A DNA stretch of 64,000 bases from a virus (taxonomy: Duplodnaviria > Heunggongvirae > Uroviricota > Caudoviricetes). The DNA is taken from the IMG/VR virus record IMGVR_UViG_2721755676_000001; one strand, written 5' to 3'. The notes under the pieces are model-generated. The model saw only the letters and a program-made list of their open reading frames with translations, did not search any database and was not told the origin of the DNA. The position numbers and the translations under genes were made by a program. Shown piece by piece: positions 47,160 through 64,000 of this stretch (the stretch's first letter is position 1; each line of letters starts with the position of its first letter).

Positions 47160-49268
47160 ATGTCTAAAAAACGTTCCATCAAAGAGGTTCAGGACTTCCG
47201 TGACAGTGTAAAACGAGTAGTCGCTCTCCTTTCAGGTAAAAACATCCCTGTTGCAGAACGAGGGGACGACGCTTATGTACGCTATAACGATGATGGAGAG
47301 CCAATTCTCGTAAACATCCCATCAATCCCGGATAACGCAACACCGGCATTGATGAATGCTGTGCGCGGATTTCTCGATCATGAGGTTGCTCACATTTTGT
47401 TTACCGATATTCGTGTGTCCAACAAAATGAGAGAAAAAGGACGCGTTCCTTCCTGGTCGCTATGGAATGCCTTAGAAGACGTGTTCATCGAGCGAAAAAT
47501 GGGTCAGGTCTTTAACGGAACAAGACGTAATCTGATGGCAACTCAGCGCCTTATAATCGAAAAAGTCTTTAAACCAAAGGCTTCAGAGGCTATTGCTTAT
47601 TGTGGCAAAGATCAGCGCGCGCTTTTTCTAAACTTCTTTCTCTGTCCGGTTGTAAGAGCCTGGGATGGCCAAGCACCGTTCGTAGATTTCATGGATGAAC
47701 ATTGGCCTGTCATTGAGAAACCAATTTCATTATTAAAAGAACATGGTATCGATGTGGCCGTGCGTAACATGTCTTGCACCGAGGATTGTGTAAAGGTGGC
47801 TGCGACCATAGCTAAGATCCTCAAAGACACTGAAAGTGAAAGCAAAGGTAAGGAGTCAGCTCCGGGAAAAACTTCCGATCCTTCAGACGCTGACCAGACG
47901 GATGCCTCTGGAGAAAACAATGAAGACAACGAAGATCATGAGACTCCCTCAGTGTTAGATAATCACAAATCTATCAAATCAGAATCACATAGTAAGTACA
48001 AACATGATAATAACGACAGTGATGATTCAGATAATTCTGAATCATCAGAAACAATATTCGATGATACAGAAAATGATAAAGAGGTATCAGATTCTGATGC
48101 TTCTGATAACGCGGCGTCAGAATCATTAACCGCTGACCACGAAAAAAGAAAAACGACAGAAGACGGCTCTTCAGATATCCCAACTCCGTCAAAAATGAGT
48201 CTGGAAGAGGCTTTAGAGGAGCTGGATAGCATAGAAGATGAAGTCGGAGGCATGACAGAAGATGCTCTATCCGAAACGATTAAAAGCGAGTTAACAGAAA
48301 GCTCGAAAAGCGAATACAGGCCATACAATCGCTCATACGACTTCATCGGCTCGATTGATCAGGCAGAAGCCCATATCAAACGGCTTATTAAAACATTCTC
48401 CGATATTGATTTGGGAGGATATCCAATCAGCCGCTATCGCATCGTTCCTGAAGGCAACCAGCTCTTCGACAAATATATTGAAAAGCATCTTTCGTCAGGT
48501 GTTTCGTCGACGCTGGCAAAAGACCTGGAGCGAGCAATAGCAAGCAGAAACAGAGTTCAGTTTATACCGGGCCAGCGTCGGGGGCGCATTCATGGTTCTA
48601 GTATCTACAGATTAGCAATGAATGATGCTCGCGTGTTTCGTAAAAAAGAAGAATCTAAAGCCGTTAACGCCTGTGTTCAACAAGTGATTGATTTATCAGG
48701 TTCAATGAGTGGTATAACGATTAAACTGGCTCTTGCAAGTGCATATACCATCGCCGATGCCCTTGATCGAATAAATGTTCCCAACATTATCACCGGCTTC
48801 ACTACATTTGGTAGTCATATGGCGGCAGGAGAACTTAAGGCTGTCAAGTATGAGTTCTCTCGCTTTGAATCTTTAATGCTACCTATCATCAAAAATTGGA
48901 ATGAAAAGGTAAATTCTCGCGAAGTTCGCTCACGTATGGGGTGCGTAGGCTACACATTCCCACTTCTTAATAACGTGGATGGTGAAAGCATAGCCAGCCT
49001 TGCATCGTTATTTTCCGGTCGCATGGAGGACAGGAAGATCATGCTTGTTCTGAGTGATGGCGCGCCGTGGGCTGTTGGGAGAGGTTTTGACGCTCATTTG
49101 CGTTCAGTTGCGAAGCAAATTGAAACGCAGACTGATATTGATTTGATGGCAATTGGCATCATGACTGACGCACCGGAGAAATTTTACTCAAATCATGCCC
49201 TGGTAACGAGCGTTGATAGTCTTGGTTCATCTGTAGTTACTGAACTATCTCGTATCATTTTAAAGTGA
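47160..49268 (+). CDS. CobT-like protein with C-terminal von Willebrand A domain
   Basis: MIDAS motif VIDLSGSMSG in C-terminal domain; long acidic Asp/Ser/Glu-rich linker; paired with downstream AAA+ ATPase. Confidence 0.7.
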   Translation: MSKKRSIKEVQDFRDSVKRVVALLSGKNIPVAERGDDAYVRYNDDGEPILVNIPSIPDNATPALMNAVRGFLDHEVAHILFTDIRVSNKMREKGRVPSWSLWNALEDVFIERKMGQVFNGTRRNLMATQRLIIEKVFKPKASEAIAYCGKDQRALFLNFFLCPVVRAWDGQAPFVDFMDEHWPVIEKPISLLKEHGIDVAVRNMSCTEDCVKVAATIAKILKDTESESKGKESAPGKTSDPSDADQTDASGENNEDNEDHETPSVLDNHKSIKSESHSKYKHDNNDSDDSDNSESSETIFDDTENDKEVSDSDASDNAASESLTADHEKRKTTEDGSSDIPTPSKMSLEEALEELDSIEDEVGGMTEDALSETIKSELTESSKSEYRPYNRSYDFIGSIDQAEAHIKRLIKTFSDIDLGGYPISRYRIVPEGNQLFDKYIEKHLSSGVSSTLAKDLERAIASRNRVQFIPGQRRGRIHGSSIYRLAMNDARVFRKKEESKAVNACVQQVIDLSGSMSGITIKLALASAYTIADALDRINVPNIITGFTTFGSHMAAGELKAVKYEFSRFESLMLPIIKNWNEKVNSREVRSRMGCVGYTFPLLNNVDGESIASLASLFSGRMEDRKIMLVLSDGAPWAVGRGFDAHLRSVAKQIETQTDIDLMAIGIMTDAPEKFYSNHALVTSVDSLGSSVVTELSRIILK

Positions 49269-49363
49269 ACAAAACAGCCTTTACGATAAGTAACCACTTA
49301 CGATATATAATGATATATTTATATAAGAAGTTGAACGCTCATTAGAGAACAAAGGAAAAACGC

Positions 49364-50599
49364 ATGACGACTACTGCACTGCAAAATGAAAAAAATCCTT
49401 CTGATTACCTTGTTTGCAAGTGGTGCGGCAAATCATTTCACTATTTTAAGTCCCATGTAGCCAATGGTAATTGCGAGGGCATTCCTGAGTCAGTAAAAGA
49501 TGCCGATCCTGACACCGTACTGAAAATGTACACAACGCAGTTTCCAGATGAACCAACGCTATCGAAAAAGGCACTTGATGCAATTCAAGCTAAACGTGCC
49601 GAGCAAAAAAGCGAAATGGCCAAATCTTCTGGCTTGACCAGTAGCCCTGGCTACACAGGCACAGTTGAGTACAAGACAGATCTGGTCGCAGCTCACGAAC
49701 TGCTAAACGTAACAGTGGAAGAACTCGGAACAAAACGTGGGACGCCGCTCATGGTTAGCGTCAACGTCAATACGCCGTATCCAGAGTTCGTTCCCGAAGT
49801 GAAGAAAGGCTACGTATATGGCGACTTCGAACTGATCAAAGATATTTTCATGATGCTTGAACTTGGCATACCTGGCTATTTGTGGGGTCATGCAGGAACA
49901 GGCAAATCGTCATTGCCTACACAGCTATGTGCTTTGCTCAATCGTCCGTTGATCCGTGCCCAACATACAGCATCAATGGAAGAGGCACATGTTACGGGGC
50001 AAATTCTGGCGCGTGATGGCTCTACGTATTTCGAACCTGGCTTGCTTGCGCTCGCAATGAAGCATGGCTGGGTTTACCTCGCGGATGAATACGACTTTGC
50101 GTTTCCACAAATTCTTGGCGTGTATCAGCCAGTGCTGGAAGGTGAAGCGTTGGTCATCAAAGAGGCAACTCCAGAATGGCGTCGCATTACTCCGCATGAA
50201 CGGTTTGCTTTCATTGGCACTGGCAACACGAACGGATCTGGTGATGAAACCGGCTTGTACCAGGGTACAAACATCCAGAACGCCGCGAACTTTTCGCGTT
50301 TTGGCATCGTTTCGAATGTGAAATACATGAGCAAAGACGCAGAGATCAACATGTTGACAAATGCAGGCATCGTGGATGAATACGCTGAAAAGATGGTTAA
50401 GTTTGCCGGTATCGTTCGCGATGGATACGAAGAACACCTCATTAGTCAGCCAATTGGCCCTCGTGAACTTTTGTTGTCGGCCAAGATTGGAATGATGCGA
50501 GGCGACTTTGTGACAGGTATTGAGCGTTCTTTCATTAACAAACTCCCTTCAGCTTCTGCACAAGCGGCTCGTGAAGTTGTTCAAAAAATATTTGGTTAA
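49364..50599 (+). CDS. CobS/MoxR-like AAA+ ATPase
   Basis: Walker A GHAGTGKSS, Walker B VYLADEYD; AAAGGAAA RBS. Confidence 0.75.
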   Translation: MTTTALQNEKNPSDYLVCKWCGKSFHYFKSHVANGNCEGIPESVKDADPDTVLKMYTTQFPDEPTLSKKALDAIQAKRAEQKSEMAKSSGLTSSPGYTGTVEYKTDLVAAHELLNVTVEELGTKRGTPLMVSVNVNTPYPEFVPEVKKGYVYGDFELIKDIFMMLELGIPGYLWGHAGTGKSSLPTQLCALLNRPLIRAQHTASMEEAHVTGQILARDGSTYFEPGLLALAMKHGWVYLADEYDFAFPQILGVYQPVLEGEALVIKEATPEWRRITPHERFAFIGTGNTNGSGDETGLYQGTNIQNAANFSRFGIVSNVKYMSKDAEINMLTNAGIVDEYAEKMVKFAGIVRDGYEEHLISQPIGPRELLLSAKIGMMRGDFVTGIERSFINKLPSASAQAAREVVQKIFG

Positions 50600-50601
50600 T
50601 C

Positions 50602-50805
50602 GTGCGTAAAGGATGTTTCGGCTCTCTTATCGCTGCTTCTGAAACTGGTAAGGCTTGTCTGGTGTGTCCAGACAAGCCCGATTGTCACCAATCAGCAAAA
50701 GAAGTTGCGATTTCGATGCATGGGAAGTTCGTAGGCTTCCCCAATGACAAAATCAAAAAAACCAGAAAGGTAAAAACACATGAAGGCACTGATGGTTCGA
50801 ACTGA
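50602..50805 (+). CDS. hypothetical small Cys-rich protein
   Basis: 67-aa ORF with C-x13-C-x2-C-x5-C pattern; overlaps polymerase start. Confidence 0.35.
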   Translation: MRKGCFGSLIAASETGKACLVCPDKPDCHQSAKEVAISMHGKFVGFPNDKIKKTRKVKTHEGTDGSN

Positions 50806-53800
50806 CTTCTCACTTGGGGAGTCGGCTCTAAAAGCAGAAAACGCGGTGAAGATTGCCAGAGAAGCTGGCTACACCGCTGTAATTTCAGCAGATAGCATGA
50901 ATATTGCGAGCGTTATTCCACTACAACGTGCCGCTGGTGACGACATGGCGGTTATTTGTGGTGTGAAACTAAACATTGTTGATGATCCCACATACGAGCA
51001 CCGGGCTAAACTTGCTAAAGAATCTATGAGATGTATGGAATCATTAGAGCGAGGACGTAACTACTCGTTTACCGCTCTAATTAAAAATGAGAAAGGATAT
51101 CGCGACATCTGCGAACTAATGACGGCGGCCAACACACGAGAACAGTTCTACTTTGTACCGCGTCTCTCGCTCGAACAGTTGGTTTCTACATATGCCAAAG
51201 GCAACATCATCCTGCTTACTTCCGACATCGGTAGCGTGTTCCAACGCAACGATTTTGCAAAAATCATAAGCACACTGATTACAGCGGGTGGAAAAGACAA
51301 CTTCTATAGTGTGGTTTATCCGCACCCTACCCCATTCTACGACCAGATTAACGTCCGGGCGATGAAAGTCGCCAGCGCATTGAAAATAGAGCCAGTGGCG
51401 TTCTATCCCGCTTATTACGAATCGATCGACGATGCAGACATTAAAGACATTGCGCACATGGTTACGAACAACATCAAAATCGACCAGCCGCATCGTCTGC
51501 GTATCCCCCACCAGCGAGATAACGCCGTCAATGGTCGCCGCCATCTCCTTGAGGCGCTTAAAGCCTTCTCCGTTCGCATGGATGTGCCGGTAACAGCTGC
51601 AATGGCCTCAACAACGCAGGATACCATTATCGATGCCTGCACATGGCGCTGGCATGAATTGCCGCCAGCACTGCCAAAGATGGCAGACGACGAGCCTGCA
51701 ACGCTGATGAAACTGGCTGTTGCAGGGCTGCGTAAACGTCTTACCACAAAAGAGTTTGGCTACACACCACCTGCTTCTGAGAACAGGGTTTATGTTGAGC
51801 GGCTAAAGTACGAAATGGACACGCTGACTCGCCTGGGATTCTGTGGTTACTTCCTGATGGTGCGCGATCTGATGAATCATAGTTGTGAAACTGGCATTCC
51901 CGTTGGGCCTGGTCGTGGTTCCTCTGCCGGTTCTCTGGTGGCGTGGTGCATAGGCATAACCAACGTCGACCCAATCCGTCACGGTCTTCTGTTTGAGCGT
52001 TTCATCAACCCTGAGCGTCTCGACTTGCCGGATGCGGACTTGGACTTCAGCCAGGCACGTCGCCATGAGGTGATCGAGTATCTGAATGAACGCTACGGCG
52101 AAGATTACGTTGCAGGCATTCCGAACTTCACCTACCTGGGCGCAGCCTCTGCACTACGTGACACCGCTCGTATTTATGGTGTGGAGTCCGCAGATATGGC
52201 GGTATCAAAAGAGCTGAAGAACGTCGAGGATGATAGCCTTCCATTGGAAGAGCTGCGCGAACAACTGGCAAGTCTCGACAAATACGCAACAAAATATCCT
52301 GATGCATTCAATGCAGCCTGCAAGTTACAAAGTCTTATGCGTGGCTTTGGTAGACATGCGGCAGGGATGATCGTAGCAGGTGTTCCTCTGACAGAACGTA
52401 CACCGGTTGAACGCCGTGGTGACGCGCGTTGTATCGCATTTGACAAGCGTTACTGCGAGGCTATGGGCCTAATTAAACTGGACGTACTTGGTCTGGCAAC
52501 TCTCGATTTGCTCGATAGTGCAAAACGCTACATAAAAGAGAACACAGGTGAAGATATCAATCTTGATGCCATTTCTCTTGAAGATCGCAAGGTGCTGGAT
52601 GGTTTTGCTGCTGGGTACACTCAAGGTGTTTTCCAGCTTGAATCAGGCCCAATGCGCAAGCTGCTTAAAGATTTAGGTGGTGGAATTGAGCCAATGAGCT
52701 TTAAAACGGTTGTTGCTACGACTGCGCTCTTCCGGCCGGGGCCAATTCAGTCAGGCATGTTGGATGACTATGTTTCTGTAGCCAAAGGCTTTATGACGCC
52801 GGAATCATTACACCCCGTTCTTGATGAACTTACCGCAGAAACAAATGGCGTGATTCTCTATCAGGAACAGACGATGAACGCGACTCGATTGCTTGCTGGC
52901 TTCACAATGGCTGAAGCTGACGGCGTTCGTAAAGCGATCGGCAAAAAAGACATGGAAAAAATGAAGAGCATGGGCGAGAAGTTCATCGTTCAGGCTCAAG
53001 CTGGCTGGATAGACGTTGAGCTGGAAGATGGCACTACACAGCGCATTCACCGTGCGGAACATTTTAAATGCGAAGACGGAACTCTGAAAACTGTCGAAGA
53101 GGCACTTGAGTACGGCGCAAAACTACCTATAAACGCAGTACGCGTTACAGCGTCACATCCAGGGCTATCAGAGATGAAAGCGAAGGAGATCTGGACCGCA
53201 TTCGAAAAGAATGGTGCCTACCAGTTCAACAAATCACACTCTGTTGCTTACTCCTTAATCAGTTATCAATCTATGTGGTTGAAAACTCATTATCCCGCGG
53301 AGTTCTTCGCTGCTGCTCTCACTATTCTTGGCGAAGATAAACACCAGGGGCTGGTTAAAGATGCGCTGACCTATGGTATTCGCGTATTGCCACCAGACGT
53401 TAACGTGTCATCTAACCGAATCGAGATCCGCACGCTTGAAGATGGCAGCCAGGTGCTGTATGCGCCCTTCTCTGCTGTGAAAGGGTGTTCTGAGAATGGC
53501 TGCCAAGCCATCATGAGAGCGCGAGAAAAAGTTGGCGGCAAATTCGAGTCACTGGCGCAATTCGAAGAAGCTGTCGAGAAACGTGCCTGTAATAGTCGAG
53601 TGCGCGAATCGCTGCAAAAAGTAGGGGCGTTTGCATCCATCGAGCCAGGCAGTCTGCCAGCAACTGATCCAGAGCGCCTACGCGACCAGGCTGAATTGAT
53701 GGGAAACCTTGTCATAGATGCAGTTAAAGCCTCACGTCCGTTTGAGATGAACCCCAAACGTTCGGCTGAAATTAACGTACTCATGACGCGGATGGCGGCT

Positions 53801-54298
53801 GAAATGGGCTTAGGTGATGAACTAATCCGCCCCAGCATTGGTATTAAGCCGAAAATCATGATCATTCTGGACAATGCGAACGGCAATGATGCTCGAACCG
53901 GTTACTTTATGGAGAACGGATACGACGACTTTAAGGCCAAGCTATTGACGGCTGGAGATTTACGCATGGGCGATCTCTATGTCACAGGTGTTTGCAAGAA
54001 GGTTAAAGACAAAGAAAAAGACTACACCAAAGACGAGATCGGCCAGTTCACCGACTTTATGCGTGAAGAGATCAATCTGGTGCGTCCGACCTATGTGCTG
54101 ACGTGTGGCAGCCGGGCAACTTCATTGTTTAACAACAAAAACAAGCCATCCGATTTGGTCGGCAGGAAGGAGTATCTTCCAGACCTTGACGTTACTGTCT
54201 TTTACGGGTTTAACCCCAACATTCTTTACTTCAGACCTGAAGAGGGAGAACGACTAGAAGCGATATTAGCCGACGTAGCAGAAACCATTAAGACGTGA
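50780..54298 (+). CDS. DNA polymerase III alpha subunit-like (DnaE-type) replicative polymerase
   Basis: N-terminal PHP-like domain; block GYFLMVRDLMNHSCETGIPVGPGRGSSAGSLVAWCIGITNVDP...LLFERFINPER closely matches the conserved DnaE polymerase core. Confidence 0.9.
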   Translation: MKALMVRTDFSLGESALKAENAVKIAREAGYTAVISADSMNIASVIPLQRAAGDDMAVICGVKLNIVDDPTYEHRAKLAKESMRCMESLERGRNYSFTALIKNEKGYRDICELMTAANTREQFYFVPRLSLEQLVSTYAKGNIILLTSDIGSVFQRNDFAKIISTLITAGGKDNFYSVVYPHPTPFYDQINVRAMKVASALKIEPVAFYPAYYESIDDADIKDIAHMVTNNIKIDQPHRLRIPHQRDNAVNGRRHLLEALKAFSVRMDVPVTAAMASTTQDTIIDACTWRWHELPPALPKMADDEPATLMKLAVAGLRKRLTTKEFGYTPPASENRVYVERLKYEMDTLTRLGFCGYFLMVRDLMNHSCETGIPVGPGRGSSAGSLVAWCIGITNVDPIRHGLLFERFINPERLDLPDADLDFSQARRHEVIEYLNERYGEDYVAGIPNFTYLGAASALRDTARIYGVESADMAVSKELKNVEDDSLPLEELREQLASLDKYATKYPDAFNAACKLQSLMRGFGRHAAGMIVAGVPLTERTPVERRGDARCIAFDKRYCEAMGLIKLDVLGLATLDLLDSAKRYIKENTGEDINLDAISLEDRKVLDGFAAGYTQGVFQLESGPMRKLLKDLGGGIEPMSFKTVVATTALFRPGPIQSGMLDDYVSVAKGFMTPESLHPVLDELTAETNGVILYQEQTMNATRLLAGFTMAEADGVRKAIGKKDMEKMKSMGEKFIVQAQAGWIDVELEDGTTQRIHRAEHFKCEDGTLKTVEEALEYGAKLPINAVRVTASHPGLSEMKAKEIWTAFEKNGAYQFNKSHSVAYSLISYQSMWLKTHYPAEFFAAALTILGEDKHQGLVKDALTYGIRVLPPDVNVSSNRIEIRTLEDGSQVLYAPFSAVKGCSENGCQAIMRAREKVGGKFESLAQFEEAVEKRACNSRVRESLQKVGAFASIEPGSLPATDPERLRDQAELMGNLVIDAVKASRPFEMNPKRSAEINVLMTRMAAEMGLGDELIRPSIGIKPKIMIILDNANGNDARTGYFMENGYDDFKAKLLTAGDLRMGDLYVTGVCKKVKDKEKDYTKDEIGQFTDFMREEINLVRPTYVLTCGSRATSLFNNKNKPSDLVGRKEYLPDLDVTVFYGFNPNILYFRPEEGERLEAILADVAETIKT

Positions 54299-54423
54299 TC
54301 CCATAAACATGGCCTCTATGGCCATGTTTTCTCTTATCCCCTCATATCCCCTATCCTCGAACTCCTTGCCTTATCATCACAATGATATAATCAATATAAG
54401 ATGATAAGTAAAAAGGAAAGCAC

Positions 54424-54855
54424 ATGATCACCGATATTTACGAGAAAATAATGTCTGATCTCGAGTTTGACCGAGACAATCTGGAGGAAGTCTGGCGTAG
54501 ACAACCCCGCCTTTTAATGGAGTATGGCTCAAAACTCGCTCATGCAGAAAGAAGTGTCGCAGAGGCAAAACTTAACCTTGAAGCTGTTGAAGCAAAGCTA
54601 TACGACACAGAGCGTAAGAACTTGAGTATGAACGGCATTAAGTTCAACGAATCTGTACTGGACGCTAAGGTTAAAACAAACCCACAGTATCTGTCTAAAA
54701 GGCAGAAGTTGGATGAAGCACGGCACATCGCAGACATATACAAACATGCTGTCGCCGCCTTTTCGCATCGCCGAGACATGATCGTTCAGGCGTCAAAGAT
54801 GGCCATCGTTGAATTAGAGCGATTAGGCTCTGAACGCTTTATTACTCCCCGTTGA
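54424..54855 (+). CDS. hypothetical helical protein (speculatively a recombination mediator)
   Basis: 143-aa ORF with AAAGGAAAG RBS; no secure motif. Confidence 0.45.
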   Translation: MITDIYEKIMSDLEFDRDNLEEVWRRQPRLLMEYGSKLAHAERSVAEAKLNLEAVEAKLYDTERKNLSMNGIKFNESVLDAKVKTNPQYLSKRQKLDEARHIADIYKHAVAAFSHRRDMIVQASKMAIVELERLGSERFITPR

Positions 54856-54860
54856 TTTTT

Positions 54861-54889
54861 GATAGATAATAAGTAAGTACTGATCTATC
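54861..54889 (+). promoter_or_regulatory. dyad motif GATAGATAATAAGTAAGTACTGATCTATC
   Basis: Read directly; 7-bp inverted arms GATAGAT/ATCTATC around TAAGTAAGTA core. Confidence 0.4.
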
Positions 54890-54972
54890 ATTTAACAGCT
54901 CGAAAGAGCCACGAATGAACGAAAGCCCAACGCGCATAGCGCCATCGGCCAAATCACAACAAGGAGAAACAC

Positions 54973-56001
54973 ATGTCTAAGACATTACTTGATTTGCTTA
55001 ACAAAACTCGTGAAGACATTGCCGCCAAACGTGGTAACAACGTTGATCTGACTCGCTTAAAAGACGGCGTCAACTATATCCGCATCTTCCCGAATAAAGA
55101 CGACCCAAACGGTAAGTTCTTCCAGACTTTCGGTATGCACTACGTTAAGTATCAGAACGAGGAAGGTAAAGAAGCAACCAACGCTTATATTTGTGAGCAA
55201 CATACTCACGGTCGCGCTTGTCAGCTATGCGAAATGGTGATGGAAGGTCGCGCTCGTCACAAGGGTAACAAAGCAATGGAAGAACGCATCGGTCAAATGC
55301 GTGCCACTCCTCGCTACCTGGTCAACGGCATTCTTTCTGCTCGTGAGGATTTCGCAGATGCTGAGAAATGCCAGTTAATCGAGCTGCCGTCTACTGTATT
55401 CGATGATATCTGCAAAGCAATCACCGAAGACATCGCTGATGATATCGGCAATCCACTGAGCAAAGAGGAAGGCTACGCATTCCTGATTAAACGTACTGGC
55501 TCTGGTCGCGATACCAAATATGACGTCTCGCCTAAGCGTAAAGTCTACAAAGGCGATATCGAAGATAAATTCTGGAATACCCAGCATGATCTGATCGCAT
55601 ACGCAAATCAGGCTGATGAAACTCGTCTTCTGTCGACAGTTCGCACTATGGGTCGTCTGATTGGCATCGCTGCACCAACTGCCGCAGCATCTGCACCAGC
55701 AATTTCCTCAACCGCGAAAACATCGGCTGCGGCACTACCTGGATTTGGCTCTGTCACTGGTCATACGGAGGGTGCGACGGCTGTAGCTACCGCTCATACC
55801 CCAGCTTCTGAACCAACCAGTCTGGTTGATGAAGAAATCCTCCGTGCCGTTGAAACTGAATTTAAACCAGAAGCAAGTTCCGCTGCCGTTGCAGTATCAG
55901 TCAAAGAGTCTGAAGCAGTCGCAGCGACATCTGTAGCAGCCGCATCTGCGACGGAAGATGAAGGTCTGGATGACCTACTGAGAGAGCTGGACTCTCTGTA
56001 A
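54973..56001 (+). CDS. putative single-stranded DNA-binding protein (gp32-like zinc-binding type)
   Basis: Cys/His cluster CEQHTHGRACQLCEM; acidic C-terminal tail EDEGLDDLLRELDSL; position in replication module. Confidence 0.5.
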   Translation: MSKTLLDLLNKTREDIAAKRGNNVDLTRLKDGVNYIRIFPNKDDPNGKFFQTFGMHYVKYQNEEGKEATNAYICEQHTHGRACQLCEMVMEGRARHKGNKAMEERIGQMRATPRYLVNGILSAREDFADAEKCQLIELPSTVFDDICKAITEDIADDIGNPLSKEEGYAFLIKRTGSGRDTKYDVSPKRKVYKGDIEDKFWNTQHDLIAYANQADETRLLSTVRTMGRLIGIAAPTAAASAPAISSTAKTSAAALPGFGSVTGHTEGATAVATAHTPASEPTSLVDEEILRAVETEFKPEASSAAVAVSVKESEAVAATSVAAASATEDEGLDDLLRELDSL

Positions 56002-56017
56002 TCCCATTACGTGACCA

Positions 56018-56046
56018 GTAAGGCGTCTACGGACGCCTTACTTTTT
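56018..56046 (+). terminator. intrinsic terminator (GTAAGGCGTC-TACG-GACGCCTTAC + TTTTT)
   Basis: 10-bp stem plus T-run directly after SSB-like gene. Confidence 0.75.
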
Positions 56047-56061
56047 GGAAGGAATGTACCG

Positions 56062-57006
56062 GTGAATTATCTCTTCGTAGATGGCAATAGCCTGGGTTAT
56101 TACCACCAACAATCTGACAAATTGCACAACGGCGAAATGGAAGTACAGGCTGCTTTCGGCTTTGTTAAGAACGTCCGTCGTTATGCCTCCATCCTCCATG
56201 CCCGACCTATGATTCTTTGGGATGGATTTAGTGACAAGCGTCGCGACTTTTACCCGGACTACAAAGCAAATCGCGACGACGATCCTGATATGAAAAAGAT
56301 GAAGGAAGGCTTTGCTATCCAGAAGCCATACATCCTCAAAATGATGACCGCGCTTGGAGTTACCCAACTCATTGCAAAAGATGCAGAAGCGGATGATCTG
56401 GCCGGGCTGCTGGTATCCCGCATGGCAGCGCAGCCAACCGTTGAACACATCTATCTGTTAACAGGCGATAGCGACTGGCTTCAGTTAGTTCGCGAAAACG
56501 TAAGCTGGGTAAGCCTGCGTGAAGACGCCAAAAACAAGCAGGTTAATTTTGAGCAATTTGCGGAGCTGACAGGATTCGCTACTCCTCGCGCATTTTTGGA
56601 AGCAAAAGCATTACAAGGCGATAAATCGGACAACATTAGCGGTGTTGGTGGCATTGGTGCTGGCGGTGCGAAAGAGCTGCTGCATGAATGGGGAAGTGTC
56701 GCAACGATGGTACGCGGCATCAACGACGGCTCAATCGTGGTTGACAAAGGACGCCATAAGACCGCCTTCAACAAACTAGCGAAGAATGCCTTCAACGAGA
56801 AAACAGGCTGTCGAATGCTCGAAGCGTTCAAGAGAAACATCACGCTAATGAACCTGATTGAGACGAAGTTTCCGCCTACCGAAATCGAAACAATCAAAGG
56901 CAATCGTGACGTGAAAGCATTCGAGCAACTGTGCTACGAGCTGAATTTCCGTTCGTTCCTTGAAGACCTTGAAGTGTTTGTTCTTCCATTCGAAAGGTAT
57001 TGCTAA
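56062..57006 (+). CDS. 5'-3' exonuclease / flap endonuclease (Pol I N-terminal domain-like)
   Basis: N-terminal LFVDGNSLGYY and H3TH-like GDKSDNISGVGGIGAGGAKELL; GTG 56062 with GGAAGGA RBS (track ORF start at 56011 lies inside the terminator). Confidence 0.75.
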   Translation: MNYLFVDGNSLGYYHQQSDKLHNGEMEVQAAFGFVKNVRRYASILHARPMILWDGFSDKRRDFYPDYKANRDDDPDMKKMKEGFAIQKPYILKMMTALGVTQLIAKDAEADDLAGLLVSRMAAQPTVEHIYLLTGDSDWLQLVRENVSWVSLREDAKNKQVNFEQFAELTGFATPRAFLEAKALQGDKSDNISGVGGIGAGGAKELLHEWGSVATMVRGINDGSIVVDKGRHKTAFNKLAKNAFNEKTGCRMLEAFKRNITLMNLIETKFPPTEIETIKGNRDVKAFEQLCYELNFRSFLEDLEVFVLPFERYC

Positions 57007-57272
57007 TGCTTAAATCGATTATCAATGGCGCTACAACCACCCCTGCCCAACTGGCAAAAGAGATTGTCTTTTATCACGGTGAGTACGCTGTCATCGCACT
57101 GCCGTCAATTCTAGGCGCTGCCGGAATGAAAGCGACAGATCGCGAGTTTGGATTAGTCAGCGAGCAGGTCGTAAAAATCCTCGCTCGTGTATCCAGACTC
57201 CTTAACCACGATGCGATTGTATTCGACGAATCCGCCGCTTTAAAACGAATCAACGAAACAAAAGGAGCCTGA
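57006..57272 (+). CDS. hypothetical small protein
   Basis: ATG overlapping upstream stop (TAATG); AAGG RBS. Confidence 0.45.
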   Translation: MLKSIINGATTTPAQLAKEIVFYHGEYAVIALPSILGAAGMKATDREFGLVSEQVVKILARVSRLLNHDAIVFDESAALKRINETKGA

Positions 57273-57274
57273 TC

Positions 57275-58348
57275 ATGGCAAAAGGAAAATCCGCACTGGC
57301 ACTTGCTCTGAAAAAGAAAATCGGTAGCAACGACGAAATTCAGAAAGTAACTCATTGGATTGATACAGGCTTTCCACCGTTAAACAAAGCTATTTCTGGT
57401 CGTTACGATGGCGGCTTCCCATGTGGTCGTATCGTCGAAGTATTCGGTCCTCCAAGTGCAGGGAAAACGTTCCTTGCAACAGCAGCGATGATCTCCGCTC
57501 AAAAACAAGATGGTCTGGCGGTATTCCTCGATCATGAAAACAGTTTTGACGTTGGCCTGGCTGTAGCCAATGGCCTGAACGCAGATGAGGATGACGGTCA
57601 GTGGGTCTACAAACAGCCGGATACCTTCGAAGACTCCGTAGAGCTGATCGGCACAATCCTCAAGCTGGTGCGCGACGAAGAGCTTATTCCGGAAACAGCC
57701 CCTATCTGCATCGTAGCCGACTCTCTGGCGTCGATGGTTCCGAACTCGAAGGCTGAGAAGTTCGACAAGATGGCAGAAGGCACTGCGAAGGACAAAGATC
57801 AGCTGAACATGAACGACAACACGGCGCTGGCGCGCGCGACAAGTGCGAACTTCCCTACTCTGGCGCTTTGGGCGCGTAAGTACAACGCGTGCATCATCTT
57901 CTTGAACCAGGTGCGTACCAAAATTGGTGTGATGTTTGGCGATCCGACTACGTCTCCGGGTGGCGACTCTCCGAAGTTCTACGCGTCGGTGCGCATCCGT
58001 CTGGGTGCATCCGTCATGAAGGATGGCAAAGAGAAGATCGGACAGGACGTTGGCGCCGAGTGCATTAAAAACAAAGTCGCGCCTCCGTTTGGCAAATGCT
58101 CATGGAAATTCTACTTCGACCCGACTCGCGGGCTGGACGTCGTCGAGTCTCTGGTTGAATACATGCTGGAGGAAGGATACCTGCCCAAGAGCGCCAGCGG
58201 GCGTGTGGAAATTGGCGAGAAGAAATACACCAAATCACAGATCGTCGAGATGTACCGGGAGAAGCCATTAGCTGAAATCATTGCTGCGTTACAGGCAATA
58301 GATGACAGGCGCGAGAAGACATCACCGACAGATGAATTAGAAGATTAA
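57275..58348 (+). CDS. RecA-family recombinase (RecA/UvsX-like)
   Basis: Walker A GPPSAGKT, Walker B ICIVADSLAS, RecA-like FLNQVR block; AAAAGGAG RBS. Confidence 0.85.
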   Translation: MAKGKSALALALKKKIGSNDEIQKVTHWIDTGFPPLNKAISGRYDGGFPCGRIVEVFGPPSAGKTFLATAAMISAQKQDGLAVFLDHENSFDVGLAVANGLNADEDDGQWVYKQPDTFEDSVELIGTILKLVRDEELIPETAPICIVADSLASMVPNSKAEKFDKMAEGTAKDKDQLNMNDNTALARATSANFPTLALWARKYNACIIFLNQVRTKIGVMFGDPTTSPGGDSPKFYASVRIRLGASVMKDGKEKIGQDVGAECIKNKVAPPFGKCSWKFYFDPTRGLDVVESLVEYMLEEGYLPKSASGRVEIGEKKYTKSQIVEMYREKPLAEIIAALQAIDDRREKTSPTDELED

Positions 58349-58353
58349 TTTTC

Positions 58354-58378
58354 AGGCGTCCGAATGGACGCCTTTATA
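58354..58378 (+). terminator. putative terminator (AGGCGTCC-GAAT-GGACGCCT + TTATATCTT)
   Basis: 8-bp stem, weak U-tract. Confidence 0.5.
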
Positions 58379-58895: not shown

Positions 58896-59066
58896 TGGCG
58901 ATTCACTTTATGGTGTCATAAACTTAAATCTAGCGCCGGGTAGAACAAGTTAATCGAACGATGTAGCGGCCATTTAGGCGTTACAGAAAGAACAGAATTT
59001 TAAATTTATAGTGAAGCCGTTGCAGCAACTTTGTGGGGTGCAACCAACACTGAACAGGAAAAGAAA

Positions 59067-61496
59067 ATGGATCATAGTGTACATAACAAGCTCATCTCAT
59101 TTATATGGAACATTGCCGACGACTGTTTACGTGATGTGTACGTTCGCGGTAAGTACCGCGATGTGATTTTACCTATGGTGGTATTACGACGTTTAGATAC
59201 GTTACTTGAACCCACCAAAGAAGCCGTGCTTGAAGAGGTCAAGTTCCAAAAAGAAGAGATGCAAGCCACGGAGCTTGATGATGAACCATTGAAGGCGGCT
59301 AGTGGTTATGTTTTTTACAATACATCTAAATGGACCCTGAAATCCCTGTTCAACACCGCAACGAATAACCAACAGATATTACTCGCCAACTTTGAAGAGT
59401 ACCTGCTTGGCTTTAGCGATAATGTTAAAGAAATCATTGAATGCTTTAACCTCAAGTCGCAAATTCGTCACATGGCCTCAAAGCAAGTCCTTCTTGATGT
59501 CGTCGAAAAGTTTGTTTCCCCTTACATCAACTTAACTCATGAAACGATCGAAGACCCAGATGGCAACAAGATGCCAGCCCTTACTAACCTGGGTATGGGG
59601 TACGTGTTCGAAGAGTTGATCCGTAAGTTCAACGAGGAGAATAACGAAGAAGCCGGTGAGCACTTTACACCTAGGGAAGTGATTGAGCTGATGACACACT
59701 TGGTTTTTGACCCAGTGAAAGAGCAGCTACCATTGACCATGACCGTTTACGACCCTGCGTGTGGTAGCGGTGGTATGCTCACTGAATCTCAAAACTTCAT
59801 TGAAGAGAAATACCCGAACGACAGCCGAGATATTTACCTTTACGGCAAAGAGATCAATGACGAGACCTACGCGATTTGTAAATCGGACATGATGATCAAA
59901 GGTAACAACCCTGAGAACATCAAGGTAGGCTCAACCTTGTCTACCGACGAGTTTGCGGCTTCTCGCTTTGACTTTATGTTGTCTAACCCGCCATACGGTA
60001 AGAGTTGGGCGTCTGAACAGAAGTACATTAAAGACGGCAGCGATGTGATTGACCCGCGTTTTAAGGTTAGCCTGAAAGACTATTGGGGAAATCTCGAAGT
60101 GGTGGATGCCACGCCACGTTCGAGTGATGGCCAGCTGCTTTTCTTAATGGAGATGGTCAACAAGATGAAAGATCCGAGCGTAAGTCCATTAGGCAGCCGG
60201 ATTGCCTCTGTTCATAACGGCTCATCGCTCTTTACCGGTGATGCGGGCGGTGGCGAAAGTAATATTCGTCGCTTCATCATTGAAAACGACATGCTAGATG
60301 CCATCGTTCAGTTACCTAATAACCTGTTCTATAACACTGGCATTACCACTTACATTTGGGTGTTGAACAACAATAAACCTGAGGCGCGTAAAGGTAAGGT
60401 GCAATTAATTGATGCCAGCTTGCTCTACCGTAAGTTGCGCAAGAACTTAGGTAACAAAAACTGCGAATTTGCGCCTGAGCACATCACGGAAATTACCGAT
60501 ACTTACCTCGCGTGTAAGGATGTTGAAAGAGCACTGGATGCAAACAATGATCCTGTTGGCATCGCCAGTAAGGTATTCAGCAATGACGATTTTGGCTACT
60601 ACAAAGTCACTATCGAGCGCCCAGATCGCCGCAAAGCCAAGTTTACTCAAGATGCCATAGCCCCACTGCGTTTTGATAAGCAACTTAGTGAAGTGATGGA
60701 GTACGTGTACGCAGAGCACGGCGAACGTGTTTACGAAAAAACTGGCTACGGGTCAGATCAGAAAAAGAGCTTCTTAAAATCCATCGAGAAAGACATTCTT
60801 TCTTGGTGTGAAGATAACGACATCAGTCTCAATGCTAAGGCTAAGGCCAAACTGCTTGATGTGAAACACTGGCTGGCGCTAAAAGCATTGCTTGAAACTG
60901 CACAAACGCTGATGGCTGACATCGGTAGCATTGAATTTGATGACTTCAATAGCTTTAAAACCCAAGTTGATAAATCGCTAAAAGCCCATGCTATTAAGCT
61001 TTCAGCACCTGAGAAAAATGCCATTCTTCACGCGGTGAGCTGGTATGACGAAACCGCCAAGAAAGTGGTTAAAAAGGTAGTTAAATTAACGGGTGATAAA
61101 TTAAACGACCTGCTGGAGCGCTATGAGTGTGAAGTCGCTGACTTGCCAGATTTTGGTTATTACCCCGTTCCTTCAGCAGAAGGCGGTAAAAAAGGCGAGT
61201 ATATCACTTACGAGACCAATTCAGACCTGCGAGATACAGAATCTGTTCCATTAAAGCAAAGCATTTACCAGTACTTCCTAGATGAAGTGAAGCCTCATGT
61301 CGATGAAGCATGGATAAACCTAGATACGGTAAAAATTGGCTATGAAATCAGCTTCAATAAGTATTTCTACCGTCATAAACCGCTGCGTAGTTTAGAAGAG
61401 GTTGCAACCGACATCATCAACCTAGAACAAAAAGCCGAAGGTCTCATTGCGCAGATATTGGGTGTTAAAGTGGCGGAAGCTCAGGGAGAAGCGTAA
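59067..61496 (+). CDS. hsdM: Type I restriction-modification system methyltransferase subunit (HsdM), long form
   Basis: N6-adenine methyltransferase motif IV NPPYG (MLSNPPYGKSW) and SAM-binding region DPACGSGGML; followed by HsdS; ATG 59067 with AGGAAAAG RBS. Confidence 0.85.
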   Translation: MDHSVHNKLISFIWNIADDCLRDVYVRGKYRDVILPMVVLRRLDTLLEPTKEAVLEEVKFQKEEMQATELDDEPLKAASGYVFYNTSKWTLKSLFNTATNNQQILLANFEEYLLGFSDNVKEIIECFNLKSQIRHMASKQVLLDVVEKFVSPYINLTHETIEDPDGNKMPALTNLGMGYVFEELIRKFNEENNEEAGEHFTPREVIELMTHLVFDPVKEQLPLTMTVYDPACGSGGMLTESQNFIEEKYPNDSRDIYLYGKEINDETYAICKSDMMIKGNNPENIKVGSTLSTDEFAASRFDFMLSNPPYGKSWASEQKYIKDGSDVIDPRFKVSLKDYWGNLEVVDATPRSSDGQLLFLMEMVNKMKDPSVSPLGSRIASVHNGSSLFTGDAGGGESNIRRFIIENDMLDAIVQLPNNLFYNTGITTYIWVLNNNKPEARKGKVQLIDASLLYRKLRKNLGNKNCEFAPEHITEITDTYLACKDVERALDANNDPVGIASKVFSNDDFGYYKVTIERPDRRKAKFTQDAIAPLRFDKQLSEVMEYVYAEHGERVYEKTGYGSDQKKSFLKSIEKDILSWCEDNDISLNAKAKAKLLDVKHWLALKALLETAQTLMADIGSIEFDDFNSFKTQVDKSLKAHAIKLSAPEKNAILHAVSWYDETAKKVVKKVVKLTGDKLNDLLERYECEVADLPDFGYYPVPSAEGGKKGEYITYETNSDLRDTESVPLKQSIYQYFLDEVKPHVDEAWINLDTVKIGYEISFNKYFYRHKPLRSLEEVATDIINLEQKAEGLIAQILGVKVAEAQGEA

Positions 61497-62818: not shown

Positions 62819-62827
62819 GAAGCGAAT

Positions 62828-63991: not shown

Positions 63992-64000
63992 GGGAACTTA

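What the first reader, a model, noticed from the sequence alone, without database searches (positions are those of the whole stretch)
54424..58348. Recombination-dependent replication toolkit (SSB, flap nuclease, RecA-like recombinase)
A gp32-like zinc-binding SSB with acidic tail, a 5'-3' exonuclease and a RecA/UvsX-like recombinase are clustered with a small helical protein (54424-54855) that could be a recombination mediator. This resembles the replication strategy of large virulent phages, unusual beside a lambda-type tail and an XRE repressor, and suggests a mosaic genome.
Basis: partly seen in the sequence, partly recalled or inferred. Interest (0 to 1): 0.4.

Follow-up and report, generated by a model that had tools for sequence, protein, structure and literature searches.

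The report
Phage-plasmid recombination and replication gene cassette

Summary
Window 54424-58348 carries five co-oriented genes:
- a 143-aa helical protein;
- a gp32-family SSB with a Cys/His zinc motif and an acidic LDDLL tail;
- a T5-type 5'-3' flap nuclease;
- a RecA-family recombinase.

The helical protein's predicted fold matches T4 UvsY specifically (Foldseek top 19 PDB hits, TM up to 0.81/0.93).

The window is an E. coli SSU5/pHCM2/pLF82-type phage-plasmid. The block is 99.7% identical to known plasmids and matches 810 plasmid records. In phage Cyrano it is already annotated "UvsY / SSB T4 gp32-like / Exonuclease / RecA".

The gene order is kept in 71 of 73 close relatives. At 30-45% protein identity it is also kept in about 110-kb siphoviruses such as Pseudomonas phage nickie and Rhizobium phage RHEph10. 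There it sits in the same CobT-CobS-DnaE ... SbcD-SbcC block. It is therefore an old lineage trait, not a recent mosaic.

The recombinase is RecA-type (32% identical to E. coli RecA), not UvsX-type.

The most likely role is T4-style presynaptic filament loading for recombination-dependent replication and repair during lytic growth. This is inferred, not tested.

Already known; low interest.

The parts
54305..54329 (+). Terminator-like hairpin (AAACATGGCC-tctat-GGCCATGTTT, then a T-rich run) just after the dnaE stop. It marks the upstream boundary of the cassette.
   Evidence: Pattern scan and sequence. Consensus match only; function inferred.
54370..54408 (+). Candidate promoter for the mediator gene: an extended -10-like TGATATAAT (54383-54391) inside a perfect 9-bp inverted repeat, CTTATCATC / GATGATAAG (54370-54378 and 54400-54408).
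   Evidence: Read from the sequence. The inverted-repeat word is not enriched elsewhere in the window. Inferred, untested.
54424..54855 (+). UvsY-fold recombination mediator candidate (143 aa, four helices, two of them long).
   Evidence: AF2 pLDDT 91.6. The Foldseek PDB top 19 hits are all T4 UvsY chains, TMq 0.65-0.81 (0.72-0.81 for the top 15), TMt up to 0.93; the best non-UvsY hit has TM 0.51. phrog_2058 2.9e-69 and phrog_231 'UvsY-like' 1.1e-4. 8 of 47 relatives hit Pfam UvsY. No Pfam or NCBIfam hit for this protein itself.
54856..54972 (+). Conserved 117-nt spacer and leader before the SSB gene. It holds a promoter-like TAGATA-17-TATCAT (54863-54891) and a small conserved stem (GCC..GCGC-nnn-GCGC..GGC).
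   Evidence: Promoter scan. Alignment of 17 relatives and RNAalifold show limited covariation: C-G to U-A at one pair in two sequences. Weak evidence.
54973..56001 (+). gp32-family single-stranded DNA-binding protein (342 aa). It has a Cys/His zinc motif, an Ala/Ser/Thr-rich linker and an acidic LDDLL C-terminal tail.
   Evidence: Pfam PF08804 1.7e-66 over profile positions 1-208 of 208. phrog_1192 7e-116. Zinc motif aligned to T4 gp32. Tail compared with the T4 gp32 translation.
56019..56048 (+). Hairpin TAAGGCGTC-tacg-GACGCCTTA followed by CTTTTTGG, directly after the SSB stop. Possible attenuator or terminator that sets SSB apart from the downstream genes.
   Evidence: Read from the sequence. 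It resembles the hairpin after recA. The pattern scan did not call it; inferred.
56062..57006 (+). 5'-3' exonuclease / flap endonuclease (314 aa from GTG 56062; the ORF opens at 56011).
   Evidence: PF02739 1.1e-24 and PF01367 5e-12. Best solved relatives are T5 D15 flap endonuclease (2.3e-15) and Pol I 5' nuclease domains. The acidic motifs VDG, W-D, EADD, GDSD and GDxSDN align with T5's. Below all NCBIfam equivalog cut-offs.
57006..57272 (+). orf88: a small conserved helical protein of unknown function. Its ATG overlaps the nuclease stop (TAATG) and it ends 2 nt before the recA ATG, which suggests translational coupling.
   Evidence: phrog_2207 5.1e-54. The 36 homologues come only from enterobacterial SSU5-like elements. 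AF2 pLDDT 81, four helices. No PDB fold match: best E=2.1, TM<0.45. Junction sequences.
57275..58348 (+). RecA-family recombinase (357 aa), intein-free allele. It has Walker A GPPSAGKT (58-65), a conserved L2 region VRTKIGVMFGDPTTSPGGDSPKFY and an acidic C-terminus.
   Evidence: PF00154 9.7e-43. 32% identity to E. coli K-12 RecA over 291 aa, E=2e-41. PDB E-values: RecA 1e-30 to 1e-35, T4 UvsX 7.7e-6. TIGR02012 scores 156.5 bits against a cut-off of 325.3.
58354..58373 (+). Terminator-like hairpin AGGCGTCC-gaat-GGACGCCT followed by TTATATCTT. Downstream boundary of the cassette.
   Evidence: Best-ranked terminator-like site in the scan; sequence.
47160..54298 (+). Upstream context that travels with the cassette: CobT-like VWA protein (47160-49268), CobS-like AAA+ ATPase (49364-50599), a small ORF (50602-50805) and the DnaE-type Pol III alpha (50780-54298) with a weak C-terminal UDG-family-4-like region.
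   Evidence: Pfam; NCBIfam; UDG hint. The same order is found in distant loci and phages.

Best explanation
The region is the recombination cassette of an E. coli SSU5/pHCM2/pLF82-type phage-plasmid. This is a roughly 105-115-kb temperate siphovirus that is kept as a low-copy plasmid.

Identities (shown):
- a UvsY-fold mediator;
- a gp32-family zinc SSB with an acidic tail;
- a T5/Pol I-type flap nuclease;
- a lineage-specific 88-aa protein;
- a divergent RecA-family ATPase.

These genes lie directly downstream of the element's own DnaE polymerase.

Proposed mechanism (inferred by analogy with T4 UvsX/UvsY/gp32):
1. During lytic growth, DNA ends are resected to single strands. The element's SbcCD-like nuclease and/or the 5'-3' nuclease would do this.
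2. The gp32-like SSB coats the single strand.
3. The UvsY-like protein helps the RecA-type recombinase displace SSB and form a filament.
4. Strand invasion creates D-loops. These prime replication by the element's helicase, primase and DnaE, and they also repair broken forks.
5. The result is concatemers for packaging.
6. The flap nuclease, with the element's ligase and RNase HI, also trims primers and flaps. A RuvC-like resolvase encoded elsewhere clears the branches.

In the plasmid state, RepA-driven replication would suffice.
For: Element identity: 99.7% identity to E. coli plasmids and 810 matching plasmid records. 96-97% identity to E. coli phages Cyrano, PhiR41_1 and CMS-2020a, and 83% to SSU5. 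The window is collinear with Cyrano from terminase to RecA.

Gene identities.

Functional linkage by conserved neighbourhood:
- 71 of 73 close IMG/VR loci keep uvsY-gp32-exo-orf88-recA.
- Distant viral contigs at 31-50% identity keep cobS-dnaE-uvsY-like-gp32-exo-recA.
- Phages nickie and RHEph10 keep it too, followed by SbcD/SbcC-like genes.

The rest of a T4-like recombination-dependent replication set is present in the same element type. This includes SbcD/SbcC-like, RuvC, NrdAB, ThyA, DHFR, a 3'-5' exonuclease and RNase HI, plus helicase, primase and ligase.

Operon-like layout: hairpins bound the block, and exo-orf88-recA are tightly coupled.

The T4 gp32 tail motif LDDLL is retained. In T4 this tail mediates partner binding (established knowledge).
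Against: - No experiment on these genes was found in the searchable literature. The replication-priming role rests entirely on analogy.
- The mediator has no significant direct sequence match to T4 UvsY. hhalign of the family against T4 UvsY gives probability 5.7%, and PDB sequence searches find nothing. Homology therefore rests on fold, on weak bridging profile hits and on gene context.
- The recombinase is RecA-type, and no UvsY-RecA partnership has been demonstrated.
- No gp59-like helicase loader or UvsW-like helicase was identified.
- The element also has a RepA replicon, so recombination need not initiate replication.
Confidence: 0.6

Rival explanations
1. Replisome accessory and repair kit only. 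The SSB and flap nuclease serve the DnaE replisome (lagging-strand coating and Okazaki primer removal). The RecA/UvsY-like pair only repairs breaks and restarts forks. Lytic replication starts from an origin (theta, then rolling circle) without needing recombination.
For: The cassette directly follows dnaE. The same element encodes helicase, primase, ligase and RNase HI and a RepA replicon. The nuclease's closest solved relatives are replication flap endonucleases, T5 D15 and Pol I.
Against: The tight, deeply conserved linkage of mediator, SSB, nuclease and recombinase with SbcCD-like and RuvC-like genes mirrors the full T4 recombination-dependent replication set. That is more than a minimal repair pair. 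The two readings are not exclusive.
Confidence: 0.3
2. Plasmid-state function. The cassette mainly serves the prophage-plasmid. It would allow recombinational repair after host restriction or other damage, copy-number amplification, or spread of the element's own homing elements. It would not serve lytic growth.
For: Homing elements sit in or near these genes in relatives. There is a 422-aa intein in RecA in 20 of 73 loci, an HNH endonuclease insertion in dnaE, and variable cargo in the dnaE-uvsY spacer. Homing needs homologous recombination (established knowledge).
Against: The same cassette is present in relatives annotated only as phages, with no plasmid partition or repressor genes listed in the fetched stretches (nickie, RHEph10). 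The lifestyle of these phages was not checked here. Inteins and homing endonucleases commonly target conserved replication and recombination genes whatever the genes do.
Confidence: 0.07
3. Recent mosaic: the cassette was captured from a T4-like virulent phage (or recA from the host) and joined to a lambda-like temperate backbone.
For: The family names (gp32, UvsY, UvsX-like PHROG) point to T4-like phages. UvsX/RecA recombinases are statistically tied to large virulent phages (PMC2896510).
Against: - Direct similarity to T4 proteins is marginal: gp32 BLASTP E=0.064, UvsY 18% identity.
- RecA is only 32% identical to host RecA.
- GC content of 54-58 kb (0.47-0.50) is within the window's range.
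- The cassette is syntenic with CobT-CobS-DnaE and SbcCD across deeply diverged siphoviruses.
- It belongs to the persistent genome of the supergroup (PMC7969092).
Confidence: 0.03

Closest known systems
Escherichia phage Cyrano (pLF82, OV696614), Salmonella phage SSU5, S. Typhi pHCM2-type phage-plasmids (SSU5 supergroup)
   Same: Same element type and the same cassette: 96% (Cyrano) and 83% (SSU5) nucleotide identity over 54424-58348, and 99.7% to E. coli plasmids such as NZ_CP022167. Cyrano annotates the genes as UvsY recombination mediator, SSB T4 gp32-like, Exonuclease and RecA. Gene order is identical.
   Different: - The window's recA lacks the 422-aa intein that Cyrano's has.
- Its dnaE lacks the HNH insertion seen in NZ_CP022167.
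- The dnaE-uvsY spacer is empty, where Cyrano has hicAB.
- Downstream, a type I restriction-modification locus replaces Cyrano's stomatin-like region.
Bacteriophage T4 presynaptic system: UvsX / UvsY / gp32 (with gp46/47, RNase H, gp49)
   Same: It shares a gp32-family zinc SSB with an acidic LDDLL tail and a UvsY-fold mediator. It also has a RecA-superfamily recombinase and a 5'-3' nuclease. Mre11/Rad50-like and resolvase genes lie elsewhere in the element.
   Different: - The recombinase is RecA-type, not UvsX-type.
- The polymerase is DnaE (family C), not gp43 (family B).
- The nuclease is nearest to T5 D15 and Pol I, and no T4 RNase H structure appears among its PDB sequence matches.
- In T4 the genes are scattered: uvsY near 115 kb, gene 32 near 147 kb. 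Here they form one cassette.
- The host element is a temperate siphovirus-plasmid.
- Sequence identity to the T4 proteins is below about 20%.
About 110-kb siphoviruses: Pseudomonas phage nickie (Nickievirus) and Rhizobium phage RHEph10 and relatives
   Same: Same order: CobT-CobS-(x)-DnaE-[UvsY-like 'hypothetical']-SSB-5'-3' exonuclease-RecA-...-SbcD-like-SbcC-like. The UvsY-like proteins are 29-38% identical to the window protein.
   Different: - orf88 is not detected in the distant loci, and different small ORFs occupy the exo-recA interval in RHEph10.
- nickie's mediator is a 426-aa long form with an extra N-terminal part.
- The hosts are not enterobacteria.
- Whether these phages are temperate or plasmid-borne was not checked.
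Bacterial RecA with RecFOR/SSB loading
   Same: The RecA core is conserved: Walker A and B, the L2 loop, and 32% identity to E. coli RecA.
   Different: - It scores below the NCBIfam RecA equivalog cut-off (156.5 against 325.3).
- It has an insertion in the L1 region and a different C-terminal domain.
- Its partners are a gp32-type SSB and a UvsY-fold protein, not an OB-tetramer SSB and RecFOR.

Membership tests
gp32 family SSB (Pfam PF08804) | Significant full-length match to the family profile | tested here: met
   224.7 bits against a cut-off of 26.8, E=1.7e-66, profile positions 1-208 of 208.
gp32 family SSB (Pfam PF08804) | Cys/His zinc-binding subdomain. The T4 ligands His64, Cys77, Cys87 and Cys90 are recalled from the literature. 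| tested here: met
   C-x2-H-x-H-x3-C-x2-C (YICEQHTHGRACQLC) aligns with T4 TCSSTHGDYDSCPVC by BLASTP. The equivalent of His64 is ambiguous (GMHYV). Metal binding itself was not tested.
gp32 family SSB (Pfam PF08804) | Acidic C-terminal tail that recruits partner proteins | tested here: met
   The last 20 residues, AASATEDEGLDDLLRELDSL, carry 7 acidic and 1 basic residue. They share LDDLL with the T4 tail DDTDLDDLLNDL. Partner binding was not tested.
gp32 family SSB (Pfam PF08804) | Basic N-terminal cooperativity motif (T4 KRKST) | tested here: inconclusive
   The N-terminus MSKTLLDLLNKTREDIAAKRGNN has no clear (K/R)3(S/T)2 motif.
UvsY recombination mediator (Pfam PF11056 / T4 UvsY, PDB 4ZWQ-4ZWT) | Significant sequence match to the UvsY profile or to T4 UvsY | tested here: not met
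   No Pfam hit for the window protein at E<=1. hhalign of the family against T4 UvsY gives probability 5.7%. PDB sequence searches are negative. Only weak bridges exist: phrog_231 at 1.1e-4, and 8 of 47 relatives hit PF11056, best 7e-5.
UvsY recombination mediator (Pfam PF11056 / T4 UvsY, PDB 4ZWQ-4ZWT) | UvsY fold: about 137 aa and four helices, two of them long | tested here: met
   AF2 pLDDT 91.6 with helices at 2-13, 20-69, 76-84 and 87-139. The top 19 Foldseek PDB hits are all UvsY, TMq 0.65-0.81 (0.72-0.81 for the top 15), TMt up to 0.93, rmsd 1.2-3.2 A for the top 15 and up to 5.4 A overall; the next fold has TM 0.51. This is a predicted structure, not a solved one.
UvsY recombination mediator (Pfam PF11056 / T4 UvsY, PDB 4ZWQ-4ZWT) | ssDNA-binding basic residues in the LKARLDY motif (T4 K58/R60, recalled from the literature) | tested here: inconclusive
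   MAFFT places T4 ALKA-RLDYY against NLEAVEAKLYD. A K/R before an invariant Tyr (Y60) is conserved in the family, but the register is uncertain at 18% identity.
UvsY recombination mediator (Pfam PF11056 / T4 UvsY, PDB 4ZWQ-4ZWT) | Heptameric ring; binds gp32 and the recombinase; stimulates filament assembly on SSB-coated ssDNA | not testable with these tools
   Needs biochemistry or multimer modelling. Gene context next to gp32 and RecA is conserved.
5'-3' exonuclease / flap endonuclease (Pfam PF02739 + PF01367) | Both domains above gathering score | tested here: met
   87.5 bits against 34.3, and 46.6 bits against 40.
5'-3' exonuclease / flap endonuclease (Pfam PF02739 + PF01367) | Conserved metal-binding carboxylates. 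The T5 residues D26, D68, E128, D130, D153, D155, D201 and D204 are recalled from the literature. | tested here: met
   In the alignment to T5 D15 (5hmm, 1exn), VDG, LWD/LGD, EADD, GDSD/TDGD and GDKSDN/GDLGDN line up. Activity was not tested.
RecA (Pfam PF00154; NCBIfam TIGR02012 equivalog) | Match to the RecA domain profile | tested here: met
   PF00154 scores 146.9 bits against a cut-off of 27.
RecA (Pfam PF00154; NCBIfam TIGR02012 equivalog) | Score above the equivalog cut-off, i.e. an orthodox bacterial RecA | tested here: not met
   TIGR02012 scores 156.5 bits against a cut-off of 325.3, and identity to E. coli RecA is 32%. It is a divergent phage RecA-family recombinase, not a copy of host recA.
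UvsX (T4-type recombinase) | Closer to UvsX than to RecA | tested here: not met
   T4 UvsX (3io5) 7.7e-6 and UvsX (9gbg) 4.2e-9, against bacterial RecA at 1e-30 to 1e-35. The broad PHROG 97, labelled 'UvsX-like', does include it.
SSU5 supergroup phage-plasmid | Near-identity and collinearity with known members, with phage structural, plasmid and replication modules present | tested here: met
   Window 1381-26119 aligns with Cyrano 1-24758 at 96.5%, and so on. Integrase, HTH repressor, CobT/CobS and DnaE are present. The RepA region lies outside the window.

The most novel reading that the evidence does not exclude
UvsY-fold mediators are not confined to T4-like phages and UvsX partners. A very large family is the dedicated loader of RecA-type recombinases onto gp32-coated DNA in DnaE-encoding siphoviruses and phage-plasmids of about 100-120 kb. 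The family has 3444 cluster representatives at E<=1e-3, nearly all labelled 'hypothetical', and some carry a long acidic N-terminal extension. On this reading, SSU5-type phage-plasmids switch from RepA plasmid replication to T4-style recombination-dependent replication on induction.
Probability: 0.4. Interest if true: 0.45.

Novelty: already known. Interest (0 to 1): 0.2.

Why it matters
SSU5-type phage-plasmids are very common in clinical E. coli, Klebsiella, Salmonella and Yersinia: 810 plasmid records match this cassette. They can carry resistance genes, so how they replicate and recombine is of practical interest.

The sequence and its annotation are not new. The work here adds three things:
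- Structural support that the usually 'hypothetical' 143-aa protein has the UvsY fold.
- The recombinase is RecA-type rather than UvsX-type.
- The cassette is an ancient syntenic module shared with distant siphoviruses of about 110 kb, rather than a mosaic patch.

The functional claim, recombination-dependent replication in a temperate phage-plasmid, remains untested. It is a reasonable target for genetics.

Tried and rejected
- Direct sequence routes from the 143-aa protein to UvsY all failed. These were phmmer and hmmsearch against PDB with the single sequence and with two family profiles, and hhalign of the family against T4 UvsY. Only the fold search and weak bridging hits link them.
- phmmer of the SSB against PDB found nothing at E<=0.01. 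BLASTP against T4 gp32 gave E=0.064. Membership therefore rests on the Pfam profile.
- The 9-bp inverted-repeat word upstream of the mediator gene is not enriched in the window: 22 matches with one mismatch against 15.5 expected. No regulon motif was established.
- The orf88 fold search gave only non-specific helical hits, so its function stays unknown.
- The wide alignment A2 could not seed a locus scan because it has no conserved stretch. Closer queries were used instead.
- The N-terminal extensions of the long UvsY-like forms have no Pfam domain.
- Literature searches found no experimental study of these genes in SSU5-type elements and no report of the RecA intein. One preprint id listed could not be opened.
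- The idea of recent capture from T4 or from the host was considered and rejected. See the rival explanations.

Full report
**What is there.** ORF listing confirms five co-oriented genes on the + strand at the coordinates given.

| Coordinates | Length | Product |
|---|---|---|
| 54424-54855 | 143 aa | small helical protein |
| 54973-56001 | 342 aa | SSB |
| 56011/56062-57006 | 314 aa from 56062 | 5'-3' nuclease |
| 57275-58348 | 357 aa | recombinase |

Profile searches assign three of them without ambiguity:
- SSB: gp32 family PF08804, E=1.7e-66, whole profile.
- Nuclease: PF02739 (1.1e-24) and PF01367 (5e-12).
- Recombinase: RecA PF00154, 9.7e-43.

PHROGs agree: SSB 7e-116, exonuclease 2e-65, UvsX-like recombinase 4.6e-92. 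The 143-aa and 88-aa proteins have no Pfam or NCBIfam match. They belong to PHROGs of unknown function. The 143-aa protein also gives a weak hit to phrog_231, 'UvsY-like recombination mediator' (1.1e-4).

**What element this is.** The 3.9-kb region matches known elements as follows.

| Match | Identity |
|---|---|
| E. coli plasmids CP057685, NZ_CP022167, NZ_CP080257 | 99.7% |
| E. coli phages Cyrano, PhiR41_1, CMS-2020a | 96-97% |
| Salmonella phage SSU5 | 83% |
| Klebsiella phage-plasmids | about 79% |

In all, 810 plasmid records match, from Klebsiella, Escherichia, Enterobacter, Yersinia, Salmonella and others.

The window is collinear with Cyrano (pLF82), a demonstrated SSU5-like siphovirus phage-plasmid with about 5.5 copies per cell (PMC9928086). 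The shared order runs from terminase through lambda-like tail genes (M, L, K, I, J), lysis genes, parA, helicase, primase, ligase, tRNAs, integrase, HTH repressor, CobT, CobS and DnaE to this cassette.

Cyrano's depositors already annotate the four genes as 'UvsY recombination mediator', 'SSB T4 gp32-like', 'Exonuclease' and 'RecA'. Pfeifer et al. list RecA-like proteins among the persistent genes of the SSU5 supergroup (PMC7969092). The finding is therefore a correct reading of an already known, already annotated module.

**The small helical protein.** Close homologues exist only in SSU5-like elements. A profile of them finds 3444 cluster representatives at E<=1e-3 in the 1.84-billion-protein library. 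Many of these have an additional N-terminal part of about 200 aa.

An AlphaFold model built on 18 homologues is confident: pLDDT 91.6, with helices at 2-13, 20-69, 76-84 and 87-139. Foldseek against the PDB returns T4 UvsY chains as the top 19 hits.
- TM normalised by the query is 0.72-0.81 for the top 15 and falls to 0.65 by rank 19; normalised by the target it reaches 0.93.
- Rmsd is 1.2-3.2 A for the top 15 (up to 5.4 A for ranks 16-19), over 130-141 columns.
- Probability is 1.00, at 13-17% identity.
- The first non-UvsY hit has TM 0.51.

Sequence evidence is weak but points the same way. Of 47 diverse family members, 8 hit Pfam UvsY (best 7e-5), and no other Pfam family recurs. Direct comparisons to T4 UvsY are not significant. 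I therefore call it a UvsY-fold protein and a probable remote homologue. Profile membership was tested and not met for this sequence.

**The SSB.** Besides the profile match, the sequence shows a Cys/His cluster, YICEQHTHGRACQLC. BLASTP aligns this with the T4 gp32 zinc cluster TCSSTHGDYDSCPVC. A long Ala/Ser/Thr-rich linker follows, then an acidic C-terminus ...EDEGLDDLLRELDSL. The T4 gp32 C-terminus is ...DDTDLDDLLNDL. From established T4 work, that tail recruits replication and recombination partners.

**The nuclease.** Its nearest solved relatives are T5 D15 flap endonuclease (2.3e-15) and the 5' nuclease domains of Pol I. The carboxylate motifs are aligned. It falls below every NCBIfam equivalog cut-off.

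The likely start is GTG 56062, behind a GGAAGGA site. The longer ORF start at 56011 lies upstream of a 9-bp hairpin, TAAGGCGTC-tacg-GACGCCTTA, which is followed by CTTTTT.

**The recombinase.** It is RecA-type.
- Bacterial RecA structures score 1e-30 to 1e-35. T4 UvsX scores 7.7e-6 and two other phage UvsX proteins about 1e-9 to 1e-10.
- Identity to E. coli K-12 RecA is 32% over 291 residues. Walker A, the Walker B region and the L2 loop are conserved. There is an insertion around L1, and both termini differ.
- It scores less than half the NCBIfam RecA equivalog cut-off.

It is therefore neither a recent copy of host recA nor a UvsX orthologue.

**Organisation.** Terminator-like hairpins flank the cassette at 54305-54329, after dnaE, and at 58354-58373, after recA. 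A similar hairpin follows the SSB gene.

Two candidate promoters were read from the sequence:
- An extended -10-like TGATATAAT (54383-54391) inside a 9-bp inverted repeat lies before the mediator gene.
- A promoter-like TAGATA-17-TATCAT (54863-54891), whose -10 is conserved in relatives, lies before the SSB gene.

The nuclease stop overlaps the orf88 start (TAATG), and orf88 ends 2 nt before the recA ATG. All regulatory readings are inferences from consensus matches.

**Conservation.** Among 73 IMG/VR relatives with enough flanking sequence, 71 have the order uvsY-gp32-exo-orf88-recA.

Much more distant viral contigs keep cobS-dnaE-uvsY-like-gp32-exo-recA. In these, the mediator is 31-37% identical, RecA 40-50% and DnaE 36-39%. 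The gp32, nuclease and RecA identities in one such contig were confirmed by Pfam.

Among cultured phages, homologues of the mediator occur in Rhizobium phages (RHEph10 and relatives), Pseudomonas phages (nickie and relatives) and a Xanthomonas phage. All have genomes of 106-122 kb, and all annotate the gene as 'hypothetical'. In nickie and RHEph10 the order is CobT-CobS-...-DnaE-[mediator]-SSB-exonuclease-RecA-...-SbcD-like-SbcC-like. That matches the order in Cyrano and in NZ_CP022167.

The cassette is therefore part of an old, vertically kept DNA-metabolism block of a clade of large siphoviruses. The SSU5-type phage-plasmids are its enterobacterial members; whether the distant phages are temperate or plasmid-borne was not checked here. 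GC content gives no sign of a foreign patch.

**How it most likely works.** The shown part is the identity of the parts and their conserved linkage. The inferred part follows the T4 paradigm.
1. DNA ends or gaps are resected by the SbcCD-like nuclease or the 5'-3' nuclease.
2. The SSB coats the single strand.
3. The UvsY-fold protein helps the RecA-type recombinase replace the SSB.
4. Strand invasion primes DnaE-based replication and restarts forks, giving concatemers for packaging.
5. The flap nuclease, ligase and RNase HI mature lagging strands, and the RuvC-like enzyme resolves branches.

The main rival keeps the same biochemistry but denies a role in initiating replication. I found no experimental test either way.

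**Verdict.** It is wrong about UvsX-likeness and about mosaic origin. The feature is already known and annotated, so interest is low. The residual value lies in two points. One is structural support for a very large, mostly unannotated UvsY-fold family paired with RecA-type recombinases. The other is the untested proposal that these clinically common phage-plasmids use recombination-dependent replication.

Noticed in passing
window 57464-57469 (codons K64|T65 of recA); compare L001 14831-17170: In phage Cyrano and in 20 of 73 IMG/VR relatives, recA carries a 422-aa in-frame insert between K64 and T65 of the Walker A motif (GPPSAGK|C...|T). The insert starts with Cys and is annotated in plasmids as a LAGLIDADG homing endonuclease, so it is an intein. 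The window has the empty allele. I found no paper describing this intein.
   Followed up: partly
window 50780-54298 (dnaE); compare L002 5975-6709: About a dozen of the 73 relatives have roughly 0.73-0.8 kb extra inside dnaE, judging by the dnaE spans. In NZ_CP022167 an HNH endonuclease gene sits there (an intron or a free-standing homing element). The window's dnaE is uninterrupted.
   Followed up: partly
window 54299-54423: The dnaE-uvsY spacer is a cargo hotspot. It is 129 bp in the window but 550-2543 bp in many relatives; Cyrano has a hicA/hicB toxin-antitoxin pair there.
   Followed up: partly
window 53930-54295 (DnaE residues about 1050-1170): The C-terminus of the DnaE polymerase gives weak hits to uracil-DNA glycosylase family 4 (TIGR00758 3e-7, PF03167 1.4e-3; both below cut-off). 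The RHEph10 homologue is annotated the same way. This may be a DnaE-UDG-like fusion replacing the usual OB/tau-binding end.
   Followed up: partly
window 57006-57272: orf88 is a conserved 88-aa helical protein wedged between the flap nuclease and recA, with overlapping or abutting start and stop codons. It is restricted to enterobacterial SSU5-like elements and has no fold match. It could be a lineage-specific modulator of RecA or of the nuclease.
   Followed up: partly
window 56019-56040 and 58354-58373: Two similar GC-rich hairpins (AAGGCGTC-tacg-GACGCCTT and AGGCGTCC-gaat-GGACGCCT) follow the SSB gene and recA. They may act as an attenuator and a terminator that set expression levels within the cassette.
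   Followed up: no
window 54856-54972: The leader of the SSB gene is highly conserved across relatives. It contains a small stem (GCC..GCGC-nnn-GCGC..GGC) with one compensatory change in two distant sequences. This recalls T4 gene 32 translational autoregulation, but the evidence is thin.
   Followed up: partly
P0087, P0118; L172 8158-9438 (phage nickie gp100): Many members of the UvsY-fold family are 300-430 aa long. They have an acidic, low-complexity N-terminal extension with no Pfam domain. It begins with DDLxxLL-like motifs that resemble the gp32 acidic tail.
   Followed up: partly
window 59031-64000: A type I restriction-modification locus (hsdM 59031-61496, hsdS 61496-62818) and a DUF4268 gene (62828-63991) follow the cassette. 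In NZ_CP022167 hsdR comes next. This locus replaces the stomatin-like region of phage Cyrano, so it is defence cargo in a variable spot.
   Followed up: partly
window 47160-50599: CobT-like (VWA) and CobS-like (AAA+ MoxR-type) genes always precede dnaE in this module, even in distant phages. Databases label them 'porphyrin/cobalamin biosynthesis', yet they travel with the replication genes. Their real role in these phages is unclear.
   Followed up: no
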